IMG/VR virus record: IMGVR_UViG_3300029787_000052
Span: 1-57,432 of that record
Origin: a virus
Taxonomy: Duplodnaviria; Caudoviricetes
Reading direction: 5' to 3' (one strand)
DNA: 57,432 nucleotides
Program-made: the position numbers and the translations under genes
Notes under the pieces: model-generated
What the model was told of the DNA's origin: nothing
Databases searched by the model: none
Seen by the model: the letters and a program-made list of their open reading frames with translations, nothing else
Part shown: one piece after another, positions 3,001 to 54,042 of the stretch
How positions within the stretch are numbered: position 1 is the stretch's first letter
Layout: each line of letters starts with the position of its first letter

Positions 3001-5922
3001 AAGTTTTCTTCCTTGTCTACTACGGCTCAGGAAACTGCGCTTACCTTCAAAACTAAGAAGCCAACTGATCGTCCTGTCTTGAAGCTTAACAAGGCTGCAA
3101 AGGAAAAGTTTTCTAGGGGCGGCACGGTCAAGGACGAAAGCCCTGAAGTTCAGGAAACAATCAACAGAACGCAAGCTGTTAATACAGAGGAGACCGCTGG
3201 TCAGGCTTGGCTTAGTGCAATCTTTGGTGATTACACAGACAGCGTATTGTTTAGCAACAACTGGGACTTGATTAAAAGTAAATTTAGAAAAAATATACTT
3301 AACAAGTATGAAGCTATATCTGTTCTTTCCAGAAAAGCAGCAAAGGTCGCGGGAGAAGTTTTAGCGGATGCCAACGCATTCTCTGCTGTTCTCATGGCTG
3401 AACAACATGCAGGGGTAACAAAGGCTGCTTTCTATGACGGGGTTCCTGTTTACGATAAGGAGCTAGGGTTTACCTATGTAACGAGTGATATCGAAGGGCA
3501 ATCAATTCGCGGCCTTGCTTTTATACTAAGCCCTGTCCTAGAGAACCGCGTTGTTTCTCAGTTTGGCACCTATGCTCAGGCAAGAAGGGCGCAAAGACTT
3601 AATGCAGAGGGTCGCGACTCTGGCATGACTGATCAGGACGTTGTTAACGGTTTGTCGCTTGGTGACAAGTATGATTACTTTGCAGAAGTCTTTGATGAAT
3701 ATCAGGTCTGGAACAGCTACCTAGTTAAGTACATGGTTGACACTGGGTTGATCACAGCCGAGATGGGCCAGACGTGGATTGATACTGCTGATTATACCCC
3801 CTACTACAGACAGTCTTTAGAGGGCGCTGACGGAACTCAAGACCTGACATACTTCTATCCCGGCGATCCTACGCTTGGACCCTCTGGTCAGGGCTTGGCC
3901 CCCCTAGAAGGAGAGAAAAGAACTCGCATTCCCCTAGACGGTAAGCGAGTTGACAAGCGTCTTGTTGGCGCTGGTAGGGTGTTCCAAATAGATGTAGACG
4001 GGCAGGTTCAGCCGGAACAGTACGACAGTTACAACAAAGCCGTCGCGTCTGTTCGTGCCCTAAGACAATCTAATCCAGATGTTTCGGTTGATCTTTATGC
4101 CGCCCCTCGCAGGGTAGATGATTTTCTGGATAACGTCGCAAGGAACACAGCTACAGCAATACAGGGCGGCATGAAAAATATAGCCGCTCAAAGGGTTATC
4201 AGAGACTCCTTGACCTTGGGAGTAGCTTCTGAGGTTGCTCCTGATAAGTCAGGAAACAAACCAAGGCAAACTGTTCAGATACGAGTGGACGGTGTTGATC
4301 GTTACTTTGAAATTGTTGATGAGTTTCTCTACACGAGCATGACAATTCTGGGGCAGAACACCGACAGTGTTATGGATAATGTGTTTGTCGGTTTTGCAGC
4401 AAGCCCAGCAAGGGTGTTGAGGGAACTTGTTACAAGAGACCCCGGATTTATGTTGCGTAATATGATGCGTGATACGTTAAGCGCGTGGGTTACATCGGGG
4501 CAAAATTACATACCAGTTATTGATAGCGCAAAAGGCGTTATGGACGTTATACGAGGCAGCGAGTCTTCCGAGGCTTTAAGGCTGGCTGGGGTTTTCGGGG
4601 GGTTTGATTTTGCCGGAACCCCTAAAGACATGGCTAAATACATTAAGAGTAAAACAAAAACTCAAAAACCATCTGGCGTTTTAGAGACAGCGGCTAGTCC
4701 TTTTAAAAAATTATGGGATGCAACTACCGTTGCAACCAATGCCTCAGAAGCAGCAACAAGAATTGCGGTCTATAAAAGGGTTTTGGAAAAAACTGGCAAT
4801 GAAGCCCAAGCTGTTTTTGAGGCGCTTGAAGTTCTTAACTTTAGCAGACGCGGGTCAAGCGCAACCATTCGCCTTATTACTGCTGTTACTCCCTTTTTGA
4901 ATGCACGATTGCAGGGGCTAGATGTCCTGTATAGGGCTGGTTTTAGCAAAGAAACGGCAAACCCAAACGCTTCTCGAAAGGCGGCTCTTGCGAAGGCTTC
5001 TCTTATTGTAGGCACAACAGCTTTGTATAGCGTGCTTATGAGAGATGCAGATTGTTACAAGAACGCAACTGCTGAAGCCAGAGATTTAAACTGGTTTGTG
5101 CCCACACCTTTTGGGGGGGCTTGTGTAAAAATACCAGTTCCGTTTGAGGTTGGTTTCTTATTTAAGACAATACCTGAGCGGATTATGCAATGGTCGTTTG
5201 ACTCTGACACAGGGCAAGATGTTCTAGATTCTTTGGGGCGAGGCATCACCTCAACACTAGCAGTTAACCCCCCTCAGATTATTACTCCTGCTGTAGAGGT
5301 GGTTACTAATCACTCGTTCTTTTCGGGGAGGGAGATTGTTCCTGCTTATATGAAGAACTTGGACCCTGACTACCAGAAGTTTCAAGGGACCAGCAGTCTT
5401 GCACTTAATCTCGGCAAACAATTAAATATGTCTCCGCTTCAAATTGATCAGCTTATTAAAGGGTACACCGGGACATTGGGAAGTTACGGTTTGTCAGCCG
5501 CAAGTCATATGATAGATGCGTTCCAATCTCCCGATAAGCCGCTCCCGCCCGATAAGAATTGGTACAGCCTTCCTATGGTGAGGAGCTTCTTCCAAGACCC
5601 CAACAGTCGCGGCACTGTCATTCAGTTCTATGAGCTAGACCAGCTTGTTAAAACAGCCGTTAATACTTTTAAGGCGGCTGAACGTGAAGGCGATGTCGAA
5701 AAGATTACAGAGATTGCGACTAAAAGAGGGGCGGTTCTTGCCTTGGAGAATGAGGTAAAGAAAATTCGTCAGCAGCTTAAAGAGGTGCGAGAACAGAAGA
5801 ACCAAATCCTCAGGTCACCGATGGACCCGGAAGCGAAGAGGGAGTTGCTTAACATCATTAGGCAGCAGGAATTAGCTATCACCGCAGCGGTGCCGATACT
5901 CAGACAGATAGCAGTGCAATGA
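1..5922 (+). CDS. C-terminal part of giant polyvalent internal-virion/ejection protein (continues from 54046; about 3069 aa total), with LPD38-like C-terminus
   Basis: In frame with 54046-57333 across the junction. Motifs: K..F/ADVHSLR/WTPYQVQSVGW (HhH-glycosylase-like), NDIFRAVHDYFGH..GE..ETRGQNSW, GGYGQAH..ITTAYP (BECR-like), and KIPVPFEVGFLFKTIPER (LPD38-like). Confidence 0.85.
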   Translation, partial: KDWPNFLAAWLMANQQASPSTAAMNAVRSREQALTQAAQAPVSQEVEAGLAADRLFDFWMAMEAGGELPSGGAQKLYDFIDSGLLRETRSWMGDDVRGGAPAVADVHSLRDTGFVDATYQQFLQENYGVRVETDTSGSPSENQYERSGDFMRALSDHLNDINYKGGGWTPYQVQSVGWMATTKFLGKPGQTAEESILFNIRNLPFEVAFGEGSPYSETFVDYYQLPAIGQKEVTGIAAEAAANFAREVTGVAEINRYVSTGGWLDDSLNPNMVEQVVASPEAMMDMASIIGYAVEQTGMFPYRIVPTKTGKSKLALKIRPSDVSKDLLNNDTNMAILWDKIRNAELAGTKKAEKQLAKERKAGKEDARLPDEDNIITGYTGTIDENGNSSMLILFDTKKAGLLARLEPDGDVISAISKISEEMGFDLDVEAAYYEGDYIENNWTEDKEGGGYLQRIHQRYGPAVTERIKNFKRGQLEPLLEDSITSARLKYGNREKFSRRSTDSAVESRIPDRAGLSRSERQLQAQDRSGATAQEEVRVEGLPASYNIPGTGPVPTEPFAPARQAAREYGQTVGRSVPELVGNYVYGPVDGERATRIAQAYEDMPNTPEDSFTQAAYEALAEEVMTQYDFIKDTGLEVEFYPSDVDPYAASPREMIEDVKQNNHMYVFPTDAGYGMDGVTAEEVADNPMLRLTDEFISGRRARVNDIFRAVHDYFGHVKEGFGFRAAGEDAAYASHAVMFSPLARAALASETRGQNSWVNFGPAAKQNENASAVDTVYADQKVGILPEFVINEGIETLVEPVNLQELQDETGFNTQENFVPDERFSRKYPQDPRNAAPNRFVKRARADGTRSDVWGKLPFNTKFLNVRMSAGQNYETGGYGQAHAGLHDDDFRGIEDLPFTSSDAAVAAALDAYTEARVSGVDKSRFKFVENRRAGSLEMLWKPVGSKTRVKVVFDTVTDAKSGQEFLGITTAYPDSEVMTRDNLREDVENYRKANHLGPKFSSLSTTAQETALTFKTKKPTDRPVLKLNKAAKEKFSRGGTVKDESPEVQETINRTQAVNTEETAGQAWLSAIFGDYTDSVLFSNNWDLIKSKFRKNILNKYEAISVLSRKAAKVAGEVLADANAFSAVLMAEQHAGVTKAAFYDGVPVYDKELGFTYVTSDIEGQSIRGLAFILSPVLENRVVSQFGTYAQARRAQRLNAEGRDSGMTDQDVVNGLSLGDKYDYFAEVFDEYQVWNSYLVKYMVDTGLITAEMGQTWIDTADYTPYYRQSLEGADGTQDLTYFYPGDPTLGPSGQGLAPLEGEKRTRIPLDGKRVDKRLVGAGRVFQIDVDGQVQPEQYDSYNKAVASVRALRQSNPDVSVDLYAAPRRVDDFLDNVARNTATAIQGGMKNIAAQRVIRDSLTLGVASEVAPDKSGNKPRQTVQIRVDGVDRYFEIVDEFLYTSMTILGQNTDSVMDNVFVGFAASPARVLRELVTRDPGFMLRNMMRDTLSAWVTSGQNYIPVIDSAKGVMDVIRGSESSEALRLAGVFGGFDFAGTPKDMAKYIKSKTKTQKPSGVLETAASPFKKLWDATTVATNASEAATRIAVYKRVLEKTGNEAQAVFEALEVLNFSRRGSSATIRLITAVTPFLNARLQGLDVLYRAGFSKETANPNASRKAALAKASLIVGTTALYSVLMRDADCYKNATAEARDLNWFVPTPFGGACVKIPVPFEVGFLFKTIPERIMQWSFDSDTGQDVLDSLGRGITSTLAVNPPQIITPAVEVVTNHSFFSGREIVPAYMKNLDPDYQKFQGTSSLALNLGKQLNMSPLQIDQLIKGYTGTLGSYGLSAASHMIDAFQSPDKPLPPDKNWYSLPMVRSFFQDPNSRGTVIQFYELDQLVKTAVNTFKAAEREGDVEKITEIATKRGAVLALENEVKKIRQQLKEVREQKNQILRSPMDPEAKRELLNIIRQQELAITAAVPILRQIAVQ

Positions 5923-6632
5923 GTGCGTACAGGCTTGCACAGATTGTGAAGAAACCCTTTCGCAAAGCCTGTCTGTGGGGGGACAAGAAGTTCTTCAATC
6001 CCTCCTCAACCCCGCTGTCTAGTGAGTTGGAGGAGAACTACTTCCTTATACTGGACGAGACCAAAAAAATTATGGAGCGGTACGATGACTTCGCGCCATT
6101 CCAAGATATATCCCCTGACCAGACTTACATAAGCAACGACGACAAGTGGCGCATGTTCTTTCTCAAGGGTGCTGGCATAACTTTTAAGAAGAACGCCTCT
6201 AATTTCCCCGCCCTCATGAACATACTCAACAAAGACAAGCGGGTTGTTTCTGCATACCTTTCTGTCTTAGGTCCAGAGAAGGCGCTCAACCCACACGAAG
6301 GGCCGTGGGCTGGGGTGCTGCGTATGCACATGGGTTTGATCATACCCGACTCAGAGAAGTGCCACATCAACGTAGAGGGCGATAAGTATCACTGGCAGAA
6401 TGGCAAGGTCGTTCTGTTTGATGACACCTACAATCACTACGCTGTCAATGAAACTGACGAGTTACGGGTGATACTGTTTATAGATTATATGAGACCTATG
6501 AGGTTCCCGTATAACCTGATTAACTCGACAGTCATGAAAATAAGCTGGGCCTTTCCATACATATGGAGACCGTTGCTAAGGCACAGGCGCTGGTCACGAA
6601 AATTTTATGACGACAAGTTACCAGTAACTTAA
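5919..6632 (+). CDS. Aspartyl/asparaginyl beta-hydroxylase family 2OG-Fe(II) dioxygenase (LpxO/AspH-like)
   Basis: PHEGPWAGVLRMHMGL, W..GK..LFDDTYNH.A.N and RVILFIDY.RP motifs; ATGA overlap with the upstream gene. Confidence 0.88.
   Translation: MSAYRLAQIVKKPFRKACLWGDKKFFNPSSTPLSSELEENYFLILDETKKIMERYDDFAPFQDISPDQTYISNDDKWRMFFLKGAGITFKKNASNFPALMNILNKDKRVVSAYLSVLGPEKALNPHEGPWAGVLRMHMGLIIPDSEKCHINVEGDKYHWQNGKVVLFDDTYNHYAVNETDELRVILFIDYMRPMRFPYNLINSTVMKISWAFPYIWRPLLRHRRWSRKFYDDKLPVT
6615..6630. promoter_or_regulatory. 16-bp palindromic element AAGTTACCAGTAACTT
   Basis: Perfect 7-bp arms; reaches the hydroxylase stop codon, just upstream of the endolysin; one of 8 copies. Confidence 0.7.
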
Positions 6633-19884: not shown

Positions 19885-19894
19885 TGTGATTGAT

Positions 19895-19910
19895 GAGTCA
19901 CTGGTAACCT
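19895..19910. promoter_or_regulatory. 16-bp palindromic element GAGTCACTGGTAACCT (1 mismatch)
   Basis: Lies between a terminator and the RBS of the 426-aa gene. Confidence 0.65.
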
Positions 19911-20614: not shown

Positions 20615-21907
20615 TTATCGGCTGATCTGAACGACTTGCGCCCAGTCAGCCTGTTTCTCGATGGTCTCAAGCCAATGCTGATGCTGTATGCATGCAGCAA
20701 TCAGTGTCGGGCATGACGGCTCAGGGATTTCGTCGTAGTAATCCTCGCAATCACTGAACACGATGATCGCATCGACATCCAAGCCTTCTTCTTCGATATG
20801 CTCGAAAGCACCCTTGGTGTTTGTGCCACCATAGAAACGAGTGCGGTCGATCTCGTCACCAGCCTCGACCACCTGCGTGTCTCTCACATAGTGTGTGAAC
20901 TTGATGACGTGGCTGGTGATCTCGAACTCGGACGCGATCAACTGCAACTCCTCACAGAACTGGGCGAACATCTCGTCATCGACTGATGATGACACGTCAA
21001 GCAGAACTGCAATCTCACCGCCGACATCGACACGGCGGCTAGGCAGCGGCACACCCACTGCACGAGACCGGCGACCAAGCCGCTGGTATGTCGTGCCAGA
21101 TGGGCGACCGTCCAGCAGGAACCGACGCAACACCGACCGCCAGTCAACCTGTGGGCGGCGAAGCATATCAATGTGCTGCTTGAAGGGGCTGTCTTCCTTG
21201 CCAGCCTCGCCAGATATCATGGCGGCGTTCAGCACAATCTCAGTCCACTTGTCCTCTTGCTCCTGTATGTCAGAGGCAGAGAGAGCGGAGCCGTCATCGT
21301 TTGTGCCGTCGATCACCACTCCGTGGCCTTGCATGTCCACTGGCTGGTCGTCACCCGACTGAGCAGGTAAAGCGGGAGCGTCTTGAGAGTCGCCGTTCTC
21401 TGCGGCTTTCGCGTCGTTACCCTGAGCATTACCCTGAGCATCGCCCTCATCACCACCCTTTGGTGATTCGCCCTCGCCTTGCTGACCAGCGGCTGGTGGT
21501 TCTGGCTGATCCTCAAAGAGCTTTCCGTAGATGTCTTCTGCGGACTGTCCGTCCCAAGCCAGATCAACCAACCCGTCTTCGGGCAGAGAGAAACCGGCAG
21601 CAACCAAGATGGCGTTGATGGCGTAGTCGGCGGCGATGTTCCAGTTGTTCTGGTCACGCTGACCTCGACGCAGATGGTGCTTGAAGATGACGTGGCAAAC
21701 CTCATGGGCAACCACTCCCTTGAGGTGAGCGTTCGAGTGCTTGTCAACAAACGCGGGGTTGAACAGGATGCGCTTGCCATCGGTCGCCATCGTCTCAAAC
21801 TGATCGGTCTCGACCAGATCAAGACGCATGGCGATGTTACCGAAGAACGGATTGTCCAGCAGTAGCTGGGTCCGCGCCTTGGTGATCTTCTGATGTGCTA
21901 GTGACAT
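20615..21907 (-). CDS. Metallopeptidase-VWA protein (DUF2201-like)
   Basis: TMATDG, AHEVCH (HExxH), WNIAADYAIN, acidic linker, MIDAS DVSSS..GGT..FSD. Confidence 0.9.
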   Translation of the reverse strand: MSLAHQKITKARTQLLLDNPFFGNIAMRLDLVETDQFETMATDGKRILFNPAFVDKHSNAHLKGVVAHEVCHVIFKHHLRRGQRDQNNWNIAADYAINAILVAAGFSLPEDGLVDLAWDGQSAEDIYGKLFEDQPEPPAAGQQGEGESPKGGDEGDAQGNAQGNDAKAAENGDSQDAPALPAQSGDDQPVDMQGHGVVIDGTNDDGSALSASDIQEQEDKWTEIVLNAAMISGEAGKEDSPFKQHIDMLRRPQVDWRSVLRRFLLDGRPSGTTYQRLGRRSRAVGVPLPSRRVDVGGEIAVLLDVSSSVDDEMFAQFCEELQLIASEFEITSHVIKFTHYVRDTQVVEAGDEIDRTRFYGGTNTKGAFEHIEEEGLDVDAIIVFSDCEDYYDEIPEPSCPTLIAACIQHQHWLETIEKQADWAQVVQISR

Positions 21908-21919
21908 ATCAATACCTCC

Positions 21920-22786
21920 TTACTGACCGATGAAATCATCGATCTGGTTCATGATCTGACGAGCGTTGTCAGCGACTTCTTGACGCTTGCCCTCGTCTTT
22001 CTTGAGGGTAGAGGCATCGGTCTCGGTCAAGCGCAGCCCGATATCCTTGGCAAGTTGCTCAAGCCGTGGATCATCGCCGACGTTCAGCGATGGCAGCAGA
22101 TCGGCAATGTCACGCACGTTGCCGACCAGACTGTCGTAAAGCTTGGCACCTTTCTTGTCGGGATCGAAAGCTTCGAGACGCTCGACCATGTTGCTGATGG
22201 CAGAGTAGGCGCGGTCGAAACACTCGCTGGTCACCTGCGTGACACGCTCGTCATTCTTGCGCTGCATCTGCGTGACGATCTTCTGCTTGTCTTCAGCAGA
22301 CATGGCCACCCGAAAGTCGCCAGCCTCAGGGACAGGCCGAACCTCGACATCCGAATGAAACAACTCGGCACATGCCTCGACGCTGGGAAATATGTCAGCG
22401 TCGAACAGGTCGCCCAGTCGATGCGGTGCCTGATCAACCAACTCAGGATAGACCTTGAGGAAGTCAGCCACCGCGATGTCGAAGGCGTCGGTCTTCTCAC
22501 GCATCACTTCGGTGAAGCGGTCATAGCCCTTGGCCTTGATGATGTACCAGCCATCCTCGGACCACGGCGCAGTCTCGGCGGCGAACACATTGTAGAGCGC
22601 ACCACGAGCAGTCTTCACCGCCTTGTATGCGGGGTGGGTAGTATCGATCAGCGTCTTGATGACCTTGACCGCCCGTTGGTTGGCGTTCTTCTGGTCCGCG
22701 ACTTCGAGCGATACGCCCTTGTCAGTCTTGGAGAAGCTGGGGTATTTCACCGACAGCCTCACAAGCAGTGCTTTTTCTGAAAGCAT
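21920..22786 (-). CDS. Conserved helical protein (DUF3150-like) between AAA and VWA genes
   Basis: ALLV.LS...K.DK, T.PW, LGDLF...FP, LN...DP.L pattern; GAGGTG RBS. Confidence 0.75.
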   Translation of the reverse strand: MLSEKALLVRLSVKYPSFSKTDKGVSLEVADQKNANQRAVKVIKTLIDTTHPAYKAVKTARGALYNVFAAETAPWSEDGWYIIKAKGYDRFTEVMREKTDAFDIAVADFLKVYPELVDQAPHRLGDLFDADIFPSVEACAELFHSDVEVRPVPEAGDFRVAMSAEDKQKIVTQMQRKNDERVTQVTSECFDRAYSAISNMVERLEAFDPDKKGAKLYDSLVGNVRDIADLLPSLNVGDDPRLEQLAKDIGLRLTETDASTLKKDEGKRQEVADNARQIMNQIDDFIGQ

Positions 22787-22812
22787 AATTCACCTCTCGG
22801 ATTGATGTTGAC

Positions 22813-22828
22813 GAGTCACTGATGACTC
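22813..22828. promoter_or_regulatory. 16-bp palindromic element GAGTCACTGATGACTC
   Basis: Arms extend to ACGAGTCA/TGACTCGT; 21 bp identical to the 26308 copy. Confidence 0.7.
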
Positions 22829-22902: not shown

Positions 22903-23889
22903 TTAGCCGAGTTCCACGTCGGCATTGTCTGCGCGGTACTGGCAGACCGCCTTGGTCTCAGCCAGATCGGGATGGCGCGAGAGAATGTCACGCACCAGCA
23001 CGACACCAAACTCACGGCCTAGTCGTTTGCCGTAGATCAGCGCAGCCTCGATGGTGTCCTCGTCCACCCGCTTGGCGATGTTGGCGACCAGCGCGATAGT
23101 CACGTCGGTATCCGTAGGCACCTCGCAGTTCTCAGGGTCATCGAACACCTTGCTGACCGGGATCAGCCGGTCGAAGATGCGGAGGAACCCGGCAAACTCA
23201 GCCGCACGTCCCTGCCCAATCAGACCGGATAGCGCGGGAAGATAGTCCCGGCTTTCGATATGCGGCAGCAGCGCAGACACCGCCGACCACGACCGTGCAG
23301 TCGGGCTGACCTCGGCCTTGGGGTCGAACTCTTGCAGGGCATCAGGGCGATGCCGCACATAGCCGACCACACGATGGTCGATACCGGACTGGCCAGCCCA
23401 TGCAGCCCAGTCGTCAACGTCTGCTTCGAGCGGCACGACAGTCAGGCGGTCACGCACATGGGTTGGCAGTGGGCGACAACCCGCCTTGTCTTTGGAGCGG
23501 TTGCCAGTGGCAATCACCGACCAGCCGTCAGGCAACTGATAGCCGTGCAACTCACGTTCCAGCAAGAGACGTGCGGCACCGTTGAGGACGCCTTCGTCAC
23601 CCTGCGGTAACTCGTCAATGAGAAGCACACCGACATCCCCGTCACGATCTGCACGGGGTAGCCAGTCCATTGGCTTGAAGGTGGTCATTGCCCCTGACAC
23701 GTCAGGAATGCCAGTCCAGTCTTCACGGGCCATCGTCGGCACCGGAGCGTAGATCAGGTTGCCGCCCAGTTGCTTGGCGATCTGTCGGGCCAAGGCAGTC
23801 TTGCCCAGTCCGGGTTCGCCTTCGAGATATGGAACGCCGCCGGACTTGAGGATGGCGAGGGTGATGCGTAAAGCTTGAGAGTATTTCAT
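22903..23889 (-). CDS. MoxR-like AAA+ ATPase
   Basis: Walker A GEPGLGKT, Walker B LLIDE, ATGN, RDRL, PTARSW. Confidence 0.92.
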   Translation of the reverse strand: MKYSQALRITLAILKSGGVPYLEGEPGLGKTALARQIAKQLGGNLIYAPVPTMAREDWTGIPDVSGAMTTFKPMDWLPRADRDGDVGVLLIDELPQGDEGVLNGAARLLLERELHGYQLPDGWSVIATGNRSKDKAGCRPLPTHVRDRLTVVPLEADVDDWAAWAGQSGIDHRVVGYVRHRPDALQEFDPKAEVSPTARSWSAVSALLPHIESRDYLPALSGLIGQGRAAEFAGFLRIFDRLIPVSKVFDDPENCEVPTDTDVTIALVANIAKRVDEDTIEAALIYGKRLGREFGVVLVRDILSRHPDLAETKAVCQYRADNADVELG

Positions 23890-23891
23890 GG

Positions 23892-24125
23892 TTAGCTTCC
23901 TTCCGGGTTGTGCTTGGTTTCAAAAATGGTGGACTGCCACGTCATCAGGGCGACTTTGGCAATGACGACTGACAGCGACTTGCGGGTTGGCAATCCGCGA
24001 TCAGCCAGTTCTTCTCTGGCCGCACGGGCAATCTCAGAGATAGACGACTGAGAATGCAGATCGCACTCGAAGCGAGACTGCATATCTGATGCAATCTCGG
24101 TGATAGTTTCGGCTGAAACAAACAT
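23892..24125 (-). CDS. Small hypothetical protein
   Basis: AGGAGG RBS, ATG 24125, 77 aa. Confidence 0.65.
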   Translation of the reverse strand: MFVSAETITEIASDMQSRFECDLHSQSSISEIARAAREELADRGLPTRKSLSVVIAKVALMTWQSTIFETKHNPEGS

Positions 24126-24138
24126 TTGATTTGCCTCC

Positions 24139-24330
24139 TTACTTACGGGCCGCGACCATTGCGCGGATATGACGCTCACGTTCACGAGCAAGTTTTTCCT
24201 CACGCTTGTGCTGGCGCTTGATGGCGGCGACCTGTTCGTCGCCAAAGACGCCTGTCGCCCACATCCCCATGATGGTGATGACAAAGAAGACGACGGTGGT
24301 GATGACGACGAAGCTTGCAAAGATTTCCAT
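24139..24330 (-). CDS. Small membrane protein
   Basis: N-terminal TM and charged C-terminus; preceded by the 18-nt shared leader. Confidence 0.7.
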   Translation of the reverse strand: MEIFASFVVITTVVFFVITIMGMWATGVFGDEQVAAIKRQHKREEKLARERERHIRAMVAARK

Positions 24331-24358
24331 GATAGTTCCCTTCGGAGTTGATGTTGAT

Positions 24359-24374
24359 GAGTCACTGGTAACTT
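24359..24374. promoter_or_regulatory. 16-bp palindromic element GAGTCACTGGTAACTT
   Basis: Exact consensus match abutting the 3' end of hammerhead 2. Confidence 0.7.
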
Positions 24375-24445
24375 CTGGCTACCCAGACCGCCGCCTGATG
24401 GCGACGGTTTCGACCCCTGCCAGAGGGTCATCGTCAGTGGGCTAG
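24375..24445 (-). ncRNA. Hammerhead ribozyme, type I
   Basis: CUAg-CCCA|CUGACGA|U|GACCCU-cuggca-GGGGUC|GAA|ACCGUCGCC-auca-GGCGGCGGU|C|UGGG-UAG; GUC triplet with C17 at 24386; loop II CUGGC is complementary to the 3' GCCAG. Confidence 0.88.
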
Positions 24446-24627
24446 TCGTTCCCAAGAACACATTTCCTCAGGGTCTCCAGAGACTGATCGGGAAGATCAG
24501 CAATGAAGCGCAGGTCTTCGTCGTGACGAAGACGTTTGCGGATAACGTCAAGCACGGGTATCGGCTTGATGTCGCCACGCTCATGCGCGGCTTGAATGAT
24601 CCGATTAGATCGGGAGTGGTCAACCAT
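24442..24627 (-). CDS. Small hypothetical protein
   Basis: AAGGAG RBS; 61 aa; its stop codon forms part of hammerhead stem I. Confidence 0.65.
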   Translation of the reverse strand: MVDHSRSNRIIQAAHERGDIKPIPVLDVIRKRLRHDEDLRFIADLPDQSLETLRKCVLGND

Positions 24628-24654
24628 GTGTGTCTCCTTTGGTTGGTGTTGGGA

Positions 24655-24798
24655 TTAGTCGGTCCAGCGGTCGATCATGGCCTTCGCTTCGCGCAGCAAC
24701 TCTGCGCCATCGGTCCAGCATTCTTCGGTGGCGGGGCGCATGTTGAAGTGACCGGCTTCCATGCGCTCGATGATCCAGCCTTTGTAGTGATGTTCCAT
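24655..24798 (-). CDS. Small hypothetical protein (47 aa, not in ORF track)
   Basis: MEHHYKGWIIER...LREAKAMIDRWTD; GGGGAG RBS. Confidence 0.65.
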   Translation of the reverse strand: MEHHYKGWIIERMEAGHFNMRPATEECWTDGAELLREAKAMIDRWTD

Positions 24799-24817
24799 GT
24801 CAGTCTCCCCAGTTGGT

Positions 24818-24839
24818 GCCGGGAGCCGAAGCCCCCGGC
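24818..24839 (-). other. C(UUCG)G stable hairpin after first early gene
   Basis: GCCGGGGGC-UUCG-GCUCCCGGC; the G-U pair and loop favour the minus strand. Confidence 0.65.
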
Positions 24840-24845
24840 GATTGG

Positions 24846-25490
24846 TTACGCTGCCTGTTTGAGGACAGTCACGTTCTCATGACCGTTCGAGATTGCGACG
24901 GCGGCAGATGTTGACCGCTCCAGCAATTCCCAGACAGCGGTCATGCCCTCGACAGTGTCGAGGTCGAGACCGTTTGCCTTCACCAGTTTCTGGGCGAGGG
25001 CGACCAGCTTCTCTTCGTCGCTGACCTCTTCCACCGGGTTGAGGTGTTGGACCAGCTTGTTGTAGCTGTTGATCTCAAGGGCATCGCAAATGTCAGCGAC
25101 TTCGCGGCTGACCTCAGCAATCGCGTTGACCCACGCACTGCTTTCCTGAGTGGTCCTGCTGATCGCGACAGCCCCGTCTCCGATGACCTCGGCGAAGTCG
25201 TCGGACTTGGCAAGCTTCTGAGCATTCTCAGCAAGCTTCTTGCCCTTGCCCGACTTGTTCTTCTGGCCGAGCACGTCGAAGCAGACCGTTTCGAGGAATG
25301 CACCGGCATCGGCCTTGCGGCCTTTGCGGTTGCGAAGGATGTCAGCGTTGATCGCCTCGACTGCGATCAGGGCGATCAGGCTGAACTTGTCTGCTTCAAC
25401 ATTCAGTTCGGAGCGGAGGCTGGAAATCTCACCCTCTTTGACGGAGATGGTGTTGGCGACGTTGGCGGCTTCTTGGATAAGGTAGGTCAT
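24846..25490 (-). CDS. First early protein, unknown function
   Basis: 214-aa helical ORF downstream of the promoter and hammerhead 1. Confidence 0.8.
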   Translation of the reverse strand: MTYLIQEAANVANTISVKEGEISSLRSELNVEADKFSLIALIAVEAINADILRNRKGRKADAGAFLETVCFDVLGQKNKSGKGKKLAENAQKLAKSDDFAEVIGDGAVAISRTTQESSAWVNAIAEVSREVADICDALEINSYNKLVQHLNPVEEVSDEEKLVALAQKLVKANGLDLDTVEGMTAVWELLERSTSAAVAISNGHENVTVLKQAA

Positions 25491-25516
25491 GTTGTAGTTC
25501 CCTTCGGAGTTGTGTG

Positions 25517-25571
25517 TGTGTTTCGATCCTGCTGGATCATCATCAGCGGTGCAGCATCAGCACCGGACACA
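25517..25571 (-). ncRNA. Hammerhead ribozyme, type III
   Basis: UGUGU|C|CGGUGC-ugaugcu-GCACCG|CUGAUGA|U|GAUCC-agca-GGAUC|GAA|ACACA; GUC triplet with C17 at 25566; loop I UGCU is complementary to loop II AGCA. Confidence 0.9.
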
Positions 25572-25676
25572 ATTTTTCTTTCGGCTGGGTCTGATCAGGT
25601 GCCCTGCGCTTCGAGGATGCCTTGTGTCCCCCTGCGTTGTGGTCCGCGTTGTTTTTGCCTCGCGATGGCCGTGAGC

Positions 25677-25730
25677 ATTATATAGGCCCATCGGCTCCCA
25701 TCGTCAACACATCATTTCAAATTAATTTGA
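25677..25730 (-). promoter_or_regulatory. Early sigma70-like promoter with upstream perfect palindrome
   Basis: TTGACG-N17-TATATAAT (25707-25677); TCAAATTAATTTGA at 25717-25730. Confidence 0.65.
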
Positions 25731-25829
25731 GGGGGTGATTCTCCCGTATCGATGGCCAGCAAATCACACTGACAGAACAGCGGGTGTGAGCTACCATCTG
25801 ATGGTGATCAATCAGCATGAGGTGACGAC

Positions 25830-26327
25830 GTGGCACAGGATGGTTTGAAGGTGGTCGGCGGGACCGAGAGCGGCAAGTCGTCGGGCAAGGGGCGGCGATC
25901 GCTGACGAGTAAGCAACAGGCATTCGCTGATGGGGTGGTGTCGGGACTGAGCCAGAGCGAGGCTTACCGCCGCGCATACTCTGCGGAGGGCATGAAGCCA
26001 TCGGCGGTCCACACTGAGGCAAGCACGTTGGCTGCACACCCTGAGGTATCCCGAAGGATAGATGCTGGATTAGGGGAGAAGGAGAGGGCAGCACAGCGCA
26101 GCGGCCTCTCCCGGAGGGCGATGGTTCTCGAACGGCTGGAGGTGGAGGCAATGACTGCTGAAGCAGATGCCGCTCGTATCAGGGCGCTTGAACTGCTGGG
26201 AAAACATGAACGGTTATTCGTGGACGTGGTGGAAAATCAGGAGGACACTCGCAGCGCAGATGAACTGCGCGGGGAGTTGGAAGACAAGCTTGCCGATCTG
26301 ATCGGTCGAGTCACTGATGACTCGTAG
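25830..26327 (+). CDS. terS: Terminase small subunit
   Basis: LTSKQQAFA....G.SQSEAYRRAY, AS.L...P.V..RI and RIRALELLGKH motifs; GAGGTG RBS with GTG start. Confidence 0.85.
   Translation: MAQDGLKVVGGTESGKSSGKGRRSLTSKQQAFADGVVSGLSQSEAYRRAYSAEGMKPSAVHTEASTLAAHPEVSRRIDAGLGEKERAAQRSGLSRRAMVLERLEVEAMTAEADAARIRALELLGKHERLFVDVVENQEDTRSADELRGELEDKLADLIGRVTDDS
26308..26323. promoter_or_regulatory. 16-bp palindromic element GAGTCACTGATGACTC
   Basis: At the 3' end of terS. Confidence 0.7.
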
Positions 26328-36303: not shown

Positions 36304-36352
36304 ATACATCCTGACGGCGAAAGCCGACACTAGCCACGACAGGAGATATAAC

Positions 36353-37069
36353 ATGGCTGTGCATTTTACTGGACCGATCCTTCATGCAGGTAAGGATGGA
36401 AGCCGCAAATGGTTTTCTAACCTGCCCATCACCGCAAGCCCTGACTATGTCGTTTATATGGACGACTTCACGGGTATTGCTCTAGATTCAACAAATGACT
36501 GGACAGTGATCAAAGACAGCAGTGCTTCTGCTGCTCTTGGTGCTGACGCTGAAAGCGGGACATTGGTCCTGTCAAGTCAGGCAACCACCGACAATGATGG
36601 TGCTTCTGTACAAGGCAACGAAATTTTTGCCGTTAACGCAGATCGCGACATCTGGTTTGAGACCAAGCTTACCCCTACGGATGCAGAGGGTAGCAACATG
36701 GATATCTGTGTTGGTCTGACGGTTAACTTTGCGACCAACCCCGAAGCAATGCTTACTGCTGCTGACCGTATTGTGTTTCAGGTAAACGATGGTGACAGCA
36801 ACATTCTCTGCAAGACGGAGAAAGACGGTACGGAAACTTCAACGGATTCGGGGATTGATATTGCCAGCGGTACGGCAGTGACGCTCGGTTTCCATGTAAT
36901 CAACACATCAAGTGTTGAGTTTTTTGTAAACCGGCTTCTTGTAGCTACGCATACTGCCAATATCCCTGACGATGAGAATATGACTATTGGCGCTATGGAG
37001 CTTTCTGGTTCTGCTACAGGCACGAAGTCTATGGCGGTAGATTACCTGTTCGCTTCTCAAACTCGTTAG
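36353..37069 (+). CDS. Putative virion protein (beta-sandwich)
   Basis: HFTGP N-terminus, YMDDF, beta-rich; AGGAG RBS. Confidence 0.7.
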   Translation: MAVHFTGPILHAGKDGSRKWFSNLPITASPDYVVYMDDFTGIALDSTNDWTVIKDSSASAALGADAESGTLVLSSQATTDNDGASVQGNEIFAVNADRDIWFETKLTPTDAEGSNMDICVGLTVNFATNPEAMLTAADRIVFQVNDGDSNILCKTEKDGTETSTDSGIDIASGTAVTLGFHVINTSSVEFFVNRLLVATHTANIPDDENMTIGAMELSGSATGTKSMAVDYLFASQTR

Positions 37070-39944: not shown

Positions 39945-40112
39945 ATGAACTGGATTAAATCACGCATTGTTGAGCCTACGACTTGGTTGGCTGTAGGCGT
40001 TGGTGCCATTCTTCTTTCGACTGTCGTGCCTGTTATGGCGGTGTGGCTGATGATTGCGGCAGCTATAACGGTAGCTGCTGGTGTTGTCTTGAAAGAAAAA
40101 GGCGGTCGATAA
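39945..40112 (+). CDS. Small 2-TM membrane protein (55 aa, not in ORF track)
   Basis: MNWIKSRIVEPTTWLAVGVG...VLKEKGGR; AGGAGG RBS. Confidence 0.7.
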   Translation: MNWIKSRIVEPTTWLAVGVGAILLSTVVPVMAVWLMIAAAITVAAGVVLKEKGGR

Positions 40113-40126
40113 GTTACTGGTAACTT
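40111..40126. promoter_or_regulatory. 16-bp palindromic element AAGTTACTGGTAACTT
   Basis: Perfect arms; between a stop codon and a GAGGAGG RBS. Confidence 0.7.
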
Positions 40127-51996: not shown

Positions 51997-54042
51997 ATGG
52001 TAGCAAACCTTGTTCAAATTCAAGATAAGCTGAAAGACCTAAGCGATAATCAGCTTAGGACCGCTTATTCTCAAGGCACTGTTCCTCAGTTTCTGGTTAT
52101 GACCGAGATGGGTCGTCGCAAGGAAATGAAGGAAGAGTACCAGAAGAATCAAGCTCAAGGTTCTACGACTGTTGCGGAGGACATACTTTCTCCTGCCGCT
52201 AACATGGCGCGTGGTCTAGGTGCTATGGCGCAGCCTCAGAACAGGATGGCTACCCAGCCACAAAATCTGCCCATTGAGCAGTCAATGGCAACCATGCCGC
52301 CGTCTCCTCAACCAATGGCTAATAAGTTACCAGTAACTCGTATGGCTGATGGTGGCCTTGCAAAGATCAAGGCGCGTAATGGTATGAGCCTTGGTTATGA
52401 CCCCTCCTATCTTGGTGCCTTATTTCCGGGCGGGAGTTTTAGTCCTGAGGCTTTTCGGGAACTTTACCTTGGCCAAGTACCTGCTAATCAACAAAGACAG
52501 AGCAGCGTGAGAAGTGGACTTAGAGCAGGTTCTGATATTGGGGCTGGAACCTTTTTTACTCCAAGAGGCGCGATGGAAGCAGCGTTCCCTAGTGATATGG
52601 ATGCGCGTACCAAGGCTATCGAAGCAGTTGCTGCTACTTATAAGCAGCCCAGTATTTTTAGTAGAATTTTTAGCGGTACATCTCCATCAAGCAGCGGACA
52701 AATGGGGCGGGGTTCTAGGTCAGCCGTTAAACCGGCTCCCCCTTCAGTGGTTGAGCAAACTGGTTTTCCGGTCGATGCAGCAGGGCTTCTCATCGGTGAA
52801 TCTCCTGTAAAGAAGGTCGAACCCACTTCCCCTCCTGTTGTTCCTGTTTCGGTTGGTGGGGCTAAACCATCTACTGTAGATATATCTTCATTGCTGCCTA
52901 AGCCTCAGGCCAGTCCCGCTGCTGGGTTTAATACTCCTCTGTCTTTGTATGAAGACAGGTTAAGGGCAGCAGCAGCAAGACAGCAGCCAGAGGTTACTTA
53001 TAGCTCGTCCCTTACTAGCGCCGAAGCGGCGGCGAAGAAAGCGTTAACAGATGCACAGGCGGGATTAACGGCTGACTCTGCGTATAAAGATTTAGCTACG
53101 GCTTTGACTGATAGGAGAGATGCTATTGGTGGCCAGCGCGATGAGGCTGCTGGACTGGCTCTTCTCGAAGCCGCCGCTAGAATTGCTGGTTCTAAAAGCC
53201 CGTTCATTACTCAAGCTATTGGCGAAGCAGCCCCTGCGATTGCAAGCTACGGTAAAAGCTTAAGCGAAGTTAGAAAGCAAGAGAATGCTTTGTTTGACGC
53301 AGAAGCAAAGCTTACGCAGCTAGAAGTAGCAGAAGCTGCTGGCAGAAAAGACGAGGTTTCAAAGTTGCGTGGAGAGCTTCGTGATCTTGACAAGGTGCGT
53401 CGAGATATTGATGAAAAAGCTTTCAATAGATTTGAAAAGACGCGCAACCTTGAGATCAATGTAATTAAAGCCGAACAGCAGTTTGCTACTGCAAGAACCA
53501 CTGAGGCTCGTGAGAACGCAAGATTTCAACTTTCAGCAGCAAAGGATGAAAGAGAAAAAAACTCTCTTGCGAACCAGCTTGGAGAAACTCAAGCTAACAT
53601 TATTGAGCTTGAAGACTTGCTTCGTAGTGGGAAAAGCAGGGGTGGTCAACCTTTGACTGATGCTGAGAAAGCAGCGGTGCAAGATCGCATTGGAGAATTA
53701 AAAACCAGAGGAAAAGATATAGCTGGTTTAGTTAAGTCAATGAAGGGTGATGATCTTTTAACGGCTACAAGAAAGCAAGAGCTAGTTAAGAAATACAATG
53801 CCCAAATTGATAGTATTAAAAAGACACTAGGTTATGGGGTCGATACTTATATTTCACAGGCAAAGATAAAGGGTCTTACAGAAGAAGAGGCCAGAAAAGA
53901 GTTTGATAACTTGAAACAACAGCAAGCTGTCATGCAAAGAGAAATTAACAGCTTGTTGAATCTGAGTGGGGTAGCACCGGCTGGCACTTCGACTGGTGCC
54001 CTACCAAACGTAAATTTCAAAGTTAAGAAACCAAGTTCTTAG
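51997..54042 (+). CDS. Internal virion/ejection protein (coiled coil)
   Basis: Q..LK.LSD.QL..P..LV..E..RR, TVAE, RMADGGLA; lies before the giant protein. Confidence 0.75.
   Translation: MVANLVQIQDKLKDLSDNQLRTAYSQGTVPQFLVMTEMGRRKEMKEEYQKNQAQGSTTVAEDILSPAANMARGLGAMAQPQNRMATQPQNLPIEQSMATMPPSPQPMANKLPVTRMADGGLAKIKARNGMSLGYDPSYLGALFPGGSFSPEAFRELYLGQVPANQQRQSSVRSGLRAGSDIGAGTFFTPRGAMEAAFPSDMDARTKAIEAVAATYKQPSIFSRIFSGTSPSSSGQMGRGSRSAVKPAPPSVVEQTGFPVDAAGLLIGESPVKKVEPTSPPVVPVSVGGAKPSTVDISSLLPKPQASPAAGFNTPLSLYEDRLRAAAARQQPEVTYSSSLTSAEAAAKKALTDAQAGLTADSAYKDLATALTDRRDAIGGQRDEAAGLALLEAAARIAGSKSPFITQAIGEAAPAIASYGKSLSEVRKQENALFDAEAKLTQLEVAEAAGRKDEVSKLRGELRDLDKVRRDIDEKAFNRFEKTRNLEINVIKAEQQFATARTTEARENARFQLSAAKDEREKNSLANQLGETQANIIELEDLLRSGKSRGGQPLTDAEKAAVQDRIGELKTRGKDIAGLVKSMKGDDLLTATRKQELVKKYNAQIDSIKKTLGYGVDTYISQAKIKGLTEEEARKEFDNLKQQQAVMQREINSLLNLSGVAPAGTSTGALPNVNFKVKKPSS
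52324..52339. promoter_or_regulatory. 16-bp palindromic element AAGTTACCAGTAACTC (intragenic)
   Basis: Exact consensus match encoding KLPVT in a low-complexity linker. Confidence 0.6.

What the first reader, a model, noticed from the sequence alone, without database searches (positions are those of the whole stretch)
24333..25707. Paired hammerhead ribozymes with a shared translation leader punctuate the early transcript
Seen: downstream of a TTGACG-N17-TATATAAT promoter, the minus-strand RNA carries a complete type III hammerhead (25571-25517) and, 1.1 kb later, a complete type I hammerhead (24445-24375). Each is followed by the identical 18-nt RBS leader CAACTCCGAAGGGAACTA and a start codon. 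The ribozymes differ in topology and stem sequences, so they are not a simple duplication, yet the leader is identical. Known: hammerheads leave 5'-OH and 2',3'-cyclic phosphate ends and have been reported in phage DNA with largely unknown function. Inference: this is a protein-independent mRNA maturation system that gives the first-expressed genes 5'-OH ends, which are poor substrates for 5'-monophosphate-stimulated RNase E decay, and couples cleavage to translation.
Basis: partly seen in the sequence, partly recalled or inferred. Interest (0 to 1): 0.92.

Follow-up and report, generated by a model that had tools for sequence, protein, structure and literature searches.

The report
Two hammerhead ribozymes in phage operon
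Two genuine-looking self-cutting hammerhead RNAs sit at gene boundaries at the head of a phage's leftward (probably early) operon, each just before a ribosome-binding leader; this arrangement has been known in phages since 2011, so this is a solid but fairly ordinary example.

Summary
The minus strand carries a complete type III hammerhead (25571-25517) and a complete type I hammerhead (24442-24381, with a pseudoknot arm reaching 24374). Each is followed by the same 18-nt leader and a start codon. A strict descriptor finds 2 such motifs in the genome and 0 in 1000 shuffles. Both belong to widespread phage hammerhead families whose stems covary strongly. A covariance model built without the window or its close relatives hits the type I copy at E=1.4e-11. 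Rfam 15 does not reach its gathering score for either copy.

Across 98 distinct type I contexts, the ribozyme starts a median of 0 nt after a stop codon. The next start codon lies a median of 29 nt after the cleavage site. The likely job is therefore to cut a polycistronic RNA at cistron junctions.

That idea, and clustered phage hammerheads, were published in 2011 and reviewed in 2019. The claim of RNase E evasion through 5'-OH ends is untested, and the host is unknown. New details are: an extra U after A9 in both cores; a relative 99.8% identical over 941 nt that carries one more ribozyme+leader+ORF cassette; and shared leaders after different ribozymes. Earlier notes of this scan describe many phage hammerheads on other DNA.

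The parts
25677..25707 (-). Promoter-like element: TTGACG, 17-nt spacer, TATATA(AT). It heads the leftward operon and faces away from the terminase small subunit gene on the plus strand.
   Evidence: Sequence read. Conserved in L003 and L114 as GTGTTGACA-N17-TATAnn and more loosely in L108. Not listed by the consensus scan. TerS-like ORF 25830-26327 on the plus strand.
25517..25571 (-). Type III hammerhead ribozyme. The predicted cut is between 25566 and 25565. An extra U (25539) lies between A9 and stem II. Loop I UGAUGCU and loop II AGCA could kiss through UGCU:AGCA.
   Evidence: Descriptor hit. The MFE fold is the three-way hammerhead fold. 28 distinct family members were parsed, with 12 versions of stem II and 10 of stem III. 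Pair count on A7. No Rfam match with E up to 10.
25495..25512 (-). Leader copy 1, CAACUCCGAAGGGAACUA (SD-like AAGGGA), 4 nt upstream of the ATG at 25490.
   Evidence: Exact repeat. It lies in an unstructured A/C-rich stretch of the predicted 3' cleavage product.
24846..25490 (-). ORF A, 214 aa, a viral hypothetical protein and the first gene after the type III ribozyme.
   Evidence: Relatives at 86% and 54% identity in viral contigs. No Pfam or PHROG family. Only unnamed viral clusters in the Atlas.
24818..24839 (-). 9-bp hairpin with a UUCG loop just after ORF A, with no U tract.
   Evidence: Sequence. The same hairpin with compensatory changes is in L003 and L004.
24442..24798 (-). Two small ORFs, B (24798-24655, 47 aa) and C (24627-24442, 61 aa). 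The last G of ORF C's UAG stop codon is the first base of the ribozyme's stem I.
   Evidence: ORF list. Both are conserved in L003 and L105.
24374..24442 (-). Type I hammerhead ribozyme. The predicted cut is between 24386 and 24385. An extra U lies at 24430. Loop II (UCUGGC) can form a 6-bp pseudoknot with the 3' flank GCCAGA (24379-24374).
   Evidence: Descriptor. Model R1, built without the window's clade, gives 44 bits and E=1.4e-11, and the next best hit in the genome has E=2.8. Covariation. Pseudoknot test. Rfam RF03152 gives only 25 bits against a gathering score of 56.3.
24358..24373 (-). One of seven genome-wide copies of the near-palindrome AGTYAYCAGTRACT, here between the ribozyme and the leader.
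   Evidence: 7 matches at up to 3 mismatches, against a mean of 0.42 in shuffles. The copies lie just upstream of gene starts.
24333..24350 (-). Leader copy 2, identical 18-mer, 2 nt upstream of the ATG at 24330.
   Evidence: The predicted 3' cleavage product is nearly unstructured (centroid -1.6 kcal/mol, z +1.25).
24139..24330 (-). ORF D, 63 aa, a small membrane protein.
   Evidence: Weak match to PHROG 14464, annotated as membrane protein (E=0.0032). Conserved in L003 and L105.

Best explanation
Both elements are functional cis-cleaving hammerhead ribozymes transcribed as part of the phage's leftward operon. That operon is probably the early or replication operon.

The type III copy lies in the 5' untranslated region, roughly 105 nt after a conserved sigma-70-like promoter. 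When it cuts, it removes the primary 5' end. The ORF A message then begins with a 5'-OH, the two ribozyme hairpins, an A/C-rich single strand and the SD-like motif.

The type I copy begins at the last base of ORF C's stop codon and cuts 55 nt before the ORF D start. The upstream RNA then ends in the stable stems II and III with a 2',3'-cyclic phosphate. The downstream RNA begins with a 5'-OH, an unstructured leader and the same SD-like motif.

The net effect is that one polycistronic RNA becomes separate units with defined ends. Their translation start regions do not depend on what lies upstream, much like a natural version of the synthetic RiboJ insulator (recalled, not read here).

Shown here: the motifs, their conservation and covariation, their placement at cistron junctions across the family, and the shared leader.

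Inferred: transcription, cleavage in the cell, and any effect on stability or translation.
For: Motif and chance:
- Both cores are complete: CUGANGA, GAAA, GUC, G10.1-C11.1 and A15.1-U16.1.
- The strict descriptor finds 2 in the genome and 0 in 1000 shuffles.

Type I family:
- A pattern that fixes only the core and stem I found 79 viral stretches, with 51 distinct cores.
- The unconstrained inserts form a stem II of at least 4 bp in 48 of 51 and a stem III of at least 4 bp in 50 of 51. Shuffled inserts do so in 6.5% and 3.3%.
- Model R1, from 27 seeds without the window's clade, hits the window at 44 bits, E=1.4e-11.
- R1 gave 107 hits in 85 sources. Of their pair cells, 98.5% are paired against 75.2% in shuffles, 14 of 16 pairs change on both sides, and slid controls reach at most 42.3%.
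- The pseudoknot between loop II and the 3' flank covaries, for example CUGGC:GCCAG, GUUGC:GCAAC and GGGAU:AUUCC. The mean best helix is 3.93 against 3.42 +/- 0.10 in 300 permutations, whose highest mean was 3.70.

Type III family:
- 28 distinct members.
- On a MAFFT alignment of ten members, 96.5% of cells are paired against 86.2% in shuffles, and 7 of 20 pairs change on both sides.

Architecture:
- Of 98 distinct type I contexts, 93 have a start codon within 200 nt. The median is 29 nt after the cut, and 86 of those 93 have an SD-like motif.
- 92 of the 98 have an upstream ORF whose stop lies a median of 0 nt before stem I.
- Leaders are A-rich, 40.5% A against 26.8% in the contigs.
- L090, L091, L004 and L003 repeat the order type III, then a first gene (an ORF A relative in L003 and L004), then type I.
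- The promoter is conserved.

Literature:
- An extra residue between A9 and G10.1 is tolerated in a viroid hammerhead, and U at that place raised the cleavage rate 3-4 fold (passage of PMC3705267).
- Clustered prophage hammerheads cleaved in vitro, and one set also cleaved in E. coli (passages of PMC3088659).
Against: - No run on record as RNA holds this DNA, so there is no direct evidence of transcription or cleavage.
- Neither ribozyme reaches an Rfam gathering score.
- Both cores carry an extra U that departs from the strict consensus.
- The type III kissing contact never varies, so covariation cannot confirm it.
- The promoter fails the tool's simple consensus rule.
- The seeds of model R1 were fetched with a pattern taken from the window. 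Its core and stem I agreement is therefore by construction, and alignment A3 is fitted to the model.
- The window has lost, or never gained, the middle ribozyme that its relative L105, 99.8% identical over 941 nt, carries. Each single ribozyme is therefore dispensable.
- A gapped relative of the leader stands before the gene at 22786 without a ribozyme.
- Within-contig sharing of leaders is not general: mean identity is 0.53 against 0.39 between contigs.
Confidence: 0.7

Rival explanations
1. The ribozymes serve timing and decay rather than protection. Cutting removes the triphosphate end and separates cistrons so that early messages are short-lived or unequally expressed. The 5'-OH ends give no stabilisation.
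For: [quoted passage not shown] RNase E cuts many sites by direct entry whatever the state of the 5' end (PMC4191395). The host is unknown: a scan of genome contigs found this type I family in 10 records from diverse phyla.
Against: The retained structures look protective: the two hairpins at the new 5' end of the ORF A message, and stems II and III at the new 3' end of the ORF C message. In the passage read, cleavage of a 5'-hydroxylated substrate through the 5' sensor was low.
Confidence: 0.15
2. The main product of the type III ribozyme is the RNA upstream of it. Cleavage releases the 5' leader as a separate small RNA with a cyclic phosphate end. The effect on ORF A is secondary.
For: Relatives L003, L114 and L108 carry about 250 more conserved non-coding bases between the promoter and the ribozyme. 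Another branch of the family (L011, L012, L107, L110, L112, L120) has GC-rich folded-looking RNA rather than an ORF next to the ribozyme. Earlier notes of this scan describe hammerheads that head non-coding RNAs in other phages.
Against: The window has lost most of that leader and keeps only about 105 nt, yet it keeps the ribozyme and the ORF A leader intact. No Rfam family matches the leader region.
Confidence: 0.08
3. Double cleavage excises a 1180-nt RNA (25565-24386) carrying ORFs A, B and C, and that RNA is then circularised.
For: The two cuts would leave a 5'-OH and a 2',3'-cyclic phosphate on one molecule. Those ends suit an RtcB-type ligase (recalled, not tested).
Against: The new 5' end (CGGUGC...) cannot pair with the CCCA arm or loop II of the type I ribozyme, so ribozyme-mediated ligation is not set up. 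Perreault et al. looked for circular or spliced products of clustered phage hammerheads and found none, as data not shown. The spacing is not conserved: L105 has a further cut site inside the segment.
Confidence: 0.04
4. The motifs are chance matches or dead relics with no activity.
For: No Rfam gathering hit. An extra U in both cores.
Against: 0 of 1000 shuffles give even one such motif. Stems covary while the cores stay invariant across dozens of distinct relatives. The extra-U form recurs in 6 of 51 distinct type I cores and 7 of 28 type III members.
Confidence: 0.03

Closest known systems
Clustered hammerhead ribozymes flanking single genes or short gene blocks in prophages (Perreault et al. 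2011, PMC3088659; passages read)
   Same: Several cis hammerheads of mixed types lie on one strand of a phage operon, at gene boundaries. Some have pseudoknot tertiary contacts. The proposed role, cutting long phage RNAs into gene-length messages, is the same.
   Different: This is a different phage and different genes. Both cores carry an extra U after A9. The same leader follows ribozymes of different topology.
Rfam hammerhead models: Hammerhead_3 (RF00008), Hammerhead_1 (RF00163; accession recalled) and RAGATH-1-hammerhead (RF03152)
   Same: Same catalytic core and three-helix junction. A relative's type III copy scores 31 bits, E=3.5e-4, against RF00008. The window's type I copy aligns end to end with RF03152.
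   Different: All scores fall below gathering: 25 against 56.3 for the window, and 31 against 48.5 for L003. The window's type III copy gets no hit at E up to 10. Twelve loci chosen because they hold members of these families give 0 gathering hits. The upstream hairpin of RAGATH-1 is replaced here by a pseudoknot with the 3' flank.
CChMVd (+) viroid hammerhead with an extra residue between A9 and G10.1 (De la Pena and Flores 2001, as described in PMC3705267; passage read)
   Same: An extra nucleotide at the same core position. U at that position was the most active variant in that study.
   Different: That one is a viroid replication ribozyme, not a phage mRNA element. In relatives of the window's type III family the same position can hold a whole 12-19-nt insert that contains a hairpin.
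RiboJ-type synthetic ribozyme insulators (recalled; only reference-list mentions seen)
   Same: A hammerhead placed before a ribosome binding site cuts off the variable upstream RNA and leaves a defined 5'-OH leader.
   Different: RiboJ is engineered. Here the arrangement is natural, is repeated within an operon, and its effect is untested.

Membership tests
Hammerhead ribozyme (class) | Conserved core C3-U4-G5-A6-N7-G8-A9 and G12-A13-A14 | tested here: met
   CUGAUGA with GAAA at 25546-25521, and CUGACGA with GAAA at 24437-24408. These are the only two matches to CTGANGA-N(10-40)-CGAAAC in the genome.
Hammerhead ribozyme (class) | Three helices around the core, supported by covariation, with G10.1-C11.1 and A15.1-U16.1 closing pairs | tested here: met
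   Type I: 14 of 16 pairs change on both sides, and G10.1-C11.1 and A15.1-U16.1 are invariant in 79 of 79 distinct sequences. Type III: 7 of 20 pairs change on both sides.
Hammerhead ribozyme (class) | Cleavage triplet N-U-H (H is not G) 5' of the scissile bond | tested here: met
   GUC at 25568-25566 and at 24388-24386.
Hammerhead ribozyme (class) | No insertion inside the core | tested here: not met
   One extra U between A9 and G10.1 in both copies (25539, 24430). The same variant recurs in 6 of 51 distinct type I cores and 7 of 28 type III members. An extra residue at this position is tolerated in a viroid hammerhead. I therefore treat this as a known variant and not as an exclusion.
Hammerhead ribozyme (class) | [quoted passage not shown] | tested here: inconclusive
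   Type I: a 6-bp pseudoknot between loop II and the 3' flank, covarying across the family, so the feature is met. Type III: UGCU:AGCA is possible but invariant, with no covariation.
Hammerhead ribozyme (class) | Self-cleavage giving 5'-OH and 2',3'-cyclic phosphate ends | not testable with these tools
   No listed run is on record as RNA, and no bench work was possible.
Rfam hammerhead families (RF00008, RF00163, RF02275-7, RF03152; accessions other than RF00008, RF02276 and RF03152 recalled) | Score at or above the curated gathering score | tested here: not met
   0 gathering hits in the window. The best hit is RF03152 at 25 bits against 56.3.
Clustered phage/prophage hammerheads at gene boundaries (Perreault 2011) | Two or more hammerheads on one strand of a phage operon, flanking genes | tested here: met
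   Two copies 1.1 kb apart on the minus strand flank ORFs A to C. Relatives have three. 22 contigs carry two or more type I copies that each have a downstream start.

The most novel reading that the evidence does not exclude
Ribozyme + standard leader + ORF is a natural, self-insulating expression cassette, and the cassette is the unit of gene gain and loss in these phages' early operons. The ribozyme guarantees that any newly inserted small gene is translated from the same defined 5'-OH leader, whatever lies upstream.

Evidence that points this way:
- L105 is 99.8% identical to the window over 941 nt and differs by exactly one 233-nt cassette: a type I ribozyme, the leader and a 51-aa ORF.
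- The same leader follows ribozymes of different sequence or topology in at least three unrelated lineages: the window's clade, L036 and L063.
- Identity drops from 99.8% to 95% at the cassette junction, which suggests recombination there.
Probability: 0.3. Interest if true: 0.6.

Novelty: new member of a known kind. Interest (0 to 1): 0.38.

Why it matters
The biological role of the many bacterial and phage hammerheads is still called unresolved in the 2019 review. This locus does not answer that question, but it makes a clean test case.

- It has two ribozymes of different topology, one shared leader and a conserved promoter.
- Natural variants in metagenomes carry two or three ribozymes (window versus L105). 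They could be compared for message stability and translation.
- Across 98 distinct type I contexts the stop codon lies a median of 0 nt before the ribozyme, and the start codon a median of 29 nt after the cut. This argues that the family is selected for cistron-junction processing.
- Two large phage hammerhead families fall below Rfam's gathering scores, so they are missed by annotation that relies on those thresholds.

Tried and rejected
Expression data. The look-up of sequencing runs listed four runs that hold the DNA. None is on record as RNA: 'no RNA holder listed'. I did not use read laying, because contigs cannot show RNA ends.

Known phages. blastn of 23800-26200 against the phage collection found nothing.

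Leader elsewhere.
- The exact 18-mer occurs in six viral stretches. Three are close relatives. Three (L006, L007, L010) are unrelated: in L007 and L010 it lies inside what reads as coding sequence, and in L006 it lies before a terminator-like hairpin. I dropped these three.
- An ungapped degenerate search for a longer leader found only the copy at 24338-24357.
- CCGAAGGGAA at up to 1 mismatch is no more frequent than chance.

One ribozyme with many remote sites. Earlier notes of this scan describe this on other genomes. Here both ribozymes are complete in cis. GTCTGGGTAGCC at up to 2 mismatches gives 7 matches against a mean of 3.19 by chance, and none of the extra matches lies in the leftward operon. 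I rejected this reading.

Other ribozymes in the window.
- Rfam at E up to 5 gave no ribozyme hit over the whole window.
- R1 with filters off gave no second hit with E below 2.8.

Type III covariance model. The MAFFT alignments A5 and A6 were not in structural register, because of the variable insert after A9 and three rows without the insert. I built no model. I counted pairs only on the ten sequences with a 1-nt insert (A7). The 13 long-insert and 5 no-insert members were left out of that count. In the parse-based table stems are counted only while they pair, so it shows the variety of pair types and not the percentage paired. L106 was dropped as a chance match to the pattern, and L113 because the match lies at the contig edge.

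Host. The genome-contig scan gave 10 records from diverse phyla, with no host inference.

ORF A function. No Pfam or PHROG family was found, and the Atlas shows only unnamed viral clusters.

Literature on a hairpin inserted between A9 and G10.1. One search listed three papers, none relevant by title or abstract. This is one search of the held library and not proof that the feature is unpublished. Figures S1-S7 and the sequence lists of PMC3088659 may contain these families.
Full report
WHAT IS THERE

The window is the whole assembly, 57,432 bases in one contig, and it is a tailed-phage genome.
- The terminase small and large subunits and the portal gene run rightward from 25830.
- A leftward block runs from about 25700 down to about 11000.
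- That block holds ORF A, small ORFs, an AAA ATPase, a DUF2201 metallopeptidase/VWA protein, an endonuclease, an exonuclease and an Erf-like annealing protein.
- The finding lies at the head of this leftward block, which is probably the early or replication operon.

On the minus strand I read two complete hammerheads.

The type III copy has these parts:
- Stem III: 25571-25567 paired with 25521-25517.
- C17 at 25566.
- Stem I: 6 bp with loop UGAUGCU.
- Core CUGAUGA at 25546-25540.
- Stem II: GAUCC-AGCA-GGAUC.
- GAAA at 25524-25521.

The type I copy has these parts:
- Stem I: GCCCA (24442-24438) paired with UGGGU (24385-24381). Its first base is the last base of ORF C's UAG stop codon.
- Core CUGACGA.
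- Stem II of 6 bp and stem III of 9 bp.
- C17 at 24386.

Both copies carry one extra U between A9 and stem II. The 18-mer CAACTCCGAAGGGAACTA follows both and occurs nowhere else in the genome.

IS IT MORE THAN CHANCE?

- My descriptor with loose stems gives 2 hits, against a mean of 0.11 in 300 dinucleotide shuffles.
- With all stems of at least 5 bp it gives 2 hits and none in 1000 shuffles.
- The MFE fold of the type III sequence is the hammerhead fold. The fold of the type I sequence shows stems II and III.
- Rfam 15 finds nothing at gathering scores.
- In E-value mode the type I copy aligns end to end with RAGATH-1-hammerhead at 25 bits (gathering score 56.3, E=0.2). The type III copy gets no hit.

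RELATIVES: THE TYPE I FAMILY

Four viral contigs encode ORF A relatives at 86%, 86%, 86% and 54% identity. All four carry hammerheads at the same places.

A pattern that fixes only the core and stem I of the type I copy found 79 viral stretches, with 51 distinct cores.
- The free inserts close into a stem II of at least 4 bp in 48 of 51 and a stem III of at least 4 bp in 50 of 51.
- Shuffled inserts do so in 6.5% and 3.3%.

I built covariance model R1 from 27 of these, leaving out the window and its close relatives.
- R1 hits the window's type I copy at 44 bits, E=1.4e-11. The next best hit in the genome has E=2.8.
- Over 85 sources R1 found 107 copies.
- On their alignment, 98.5% of 1228 pair cells are paired, against 75.2% in shuffles.
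- 14 of 16 pairs change on both sides.
- G10.1-C11.1 and A15.1-U16.1 never vary.
- Slid controls reach at most 42.3%.

Two caveats apply. The seeds came from a pattern derived from the window, so core and stem I agree by construction. The alignment is also fitted to the model.

A pseudoknot between loop II and the bases just 3' of stem I is 6 bp in the window (UCUGGC:GCCAGA) and covaries across subfamilies. The mean best helix is 3.93, against 3.42 +/- 0.10 in 300 permutations, whose highest mean was 3.70. One subfamily, with loop UGAGAUU, shows no such pairing.

RELATIVES: THE TYPE III FAMILY

A pattern on stem I plus the core found 9 viral and 30 metagenome stretches. I parsed 28 distinct ribozymes, after dropping one chance match (L106) and one edge match (L113).
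- Stem II occurs in 12 versions and stem III in 10.
- On a MAFFT alignment of the ten members with a 1-nt insert, 96.5% of cells are paired against 86.2% in shuffles, and 7 of 20 pairs change on both sides.
- The possible loop-loop contact UGCU:AGCA is conserved but never varies, so it stays unproven.
- Between A9 and stem II the family has nothing in 5 of 28 members, one base in 10 of 28 (U in 7, G in 3), and a 12-19-nt insert holding its own covarying hairpin in 13 of 28.
- The extra U also occurs in 6 of 51 distinct type I cores.
- A review passage reports that a viroid hammerhead tolerates an extra base at this place and that U there raised the rate 3-4 fold (PMC3705267).

ARCHITECTURE

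Across 98 distinct type I contexts:
- 92 have an upstream ORF of at least 35 codons whose stop lies a median of 0 nt before stem I.
- 93 have a start codon within 200 nt. The median is 29 nt after the cut, with an interquartile range of 27-36.
- 86 of those 93 have an SD-like motif.

Leaders are A-rich and poor in G and U. The window's spacer of 55 nt is long because it also holds one of seven genome-wide copies of a near-palindrome.

The predicted 3' products fit easy translation. The ORF D leader is almost unstructured. The ORF A message starts with the two ribozyme hairpins and then an open A/C-rich stretch.

The order type III, first gene (an ORF A relative in L003 and L004), then type I recurs in L003, L004, L090 and L091.

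The promoter-like element upstream is conserved in three relatives, although the simple scan does not list it.

THE SHARED LEADER

- In L003, L105 and their kin, three ribozymes are each followed by CAACUCCGAAGGGAAYUA.
- L105 is 99.8% identical to the window over 941 nt. It then carries a 233-nt cassette that the window lacks: a type I ribozyme, the leader and a 51-aa ORF. After the cassette, identity is 95%.
- Near-identical leaders after different ribozymes also occur in L036 and L063. The pattern is not general, though: mean within-contig identity is 0.53 against 0.39 between contigs, by a crude ungapped measure.
- In the more distant L004 the two leaders differ.
- A gapped relative of the leader precedes the gene at 22786 with no ribozyme.
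- The leader is therefore a clade-specific translation start region. It is spread by duplication or gene conversion and often, but not only, stands next to ribozymes.

HOW IT MOST LIKELY WORKS

Constitutive self-cleavage at two points of the leftward polycistronic RNA gives units with defined ends.
- The 5' unit, the primary leader, is discarded.
- The unit with ORFs A to C gains a 5'-OH with 5' hairpins and a structured 3' end carrying a cyclic phosphate.
- The unit starting with ORF D gains a 5'-OH and an open leader.

This is inference from anatomy and from published work on similar clusters. Perreault et al. 2011 reported clustered hammerheads flanking genes in prophages, cleavage of three such clusters in vitro and of one in E. 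coli, and proposed processing into gene-length messages (passages). The 2019 review repeats the idea and calls the purpose unresolved (passage).

The passages I read confirm low cleavage of 5'-hydroxylated substrate. They also show that direct entry is a major route (PMC4191395). The host of this phage is unknown.

VERDICT

- The locus is a new member of a known kind.
- Points of some interest: two large phage hammerhead families fall below Rfam's gathering scores, with 0 gathering hits in 12 loci that hold members; the insert site after A9; and the cassette polymorphism.
- Earlier notes of this scan list many phage hammerheads on other DNA. Some are read as one ribozyme with many remote targets. 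I tested that reading here and found no support.

Noticed in passing
window 6616-6631, 19894-19909, 22812-22827, 24358-24373, 26307-26322, 40110-40125, 52325-52340: A 16-nt near-palindrome AGTYAYCAGTRACT occurs 7 times at up to 3 mismatches, against a mean of 0.42 by chance. Copies lie 1-30 nt upstream of gene starts on both strands. It could be a protein-binding site on DNA or a small hairpin with a CCAG or UCAG loop on RNA. An inverted copy lies before a gene in L004 (about 4647-4662).
   Followed up: partly
L003 3686-3905, L114, L108 (aligned in A4); the window has only 25671-25572: Relatives carry about 250 more conserved non-coding bases between the promoter and the type III ribozyme. The window has lost most of them. 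This may be a separate RNA released by the ribozyme. No Rfam match.
   Followed up: partly
L001/L003, L004, L012, L089, L090, L097, L101, L107, L110, L115, L117, L118 (type III ribozymes): 13 of 28 distinct members of the type III family carry a 12-19-nt insert between A9 and stem II. The insert has its own covarying hairpin (for example GGGCA/UGCCC, GCGCA/UGCGC, GAGCA/UGCUC). The window has a single U at that place. One literature search found no description of this.
   Followed up: partly
L011, L012, L107, L110, L112, L118, L120: A branch of the same type III family is followed by GC-rich, folded-looking RNA and not by a ribosome binding site and ORF.
   Followed up: no
window 24818-24839 (minus strand): A 9-bp hairpin with a UUCG loop and no U tract lies right after ORF A. 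It is kept through compensatory changes in L003 and L004. It may be a 3' stabiliser or a processing site inside the operon.
   Followed up: no
window 36309-36355 (plus strand): A near-threshold match to Rfam Mu-gpT-DE RNA (45.8 bits, gathering score 49, E=2e-7) in the late region.
   Followed up: no
type I family, 24 of the 92 contexts with an upstream ORF: In these contexts the upstream ORF, as my simple scan calls it, ends 8 nt inside the ribozyme, at the UGA of the core CUGA. The stop codon and the catalytic core would then overlap. I did not check whether those reading frames are real.
   Followed up: no
window 22903-23889 and 20615-21907 (minus strand): An AAA (MoxR-like) ATPase and a DUF2201 metallopeptidase/VWA protein lie downstream in the same operon.
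   Followed up: no
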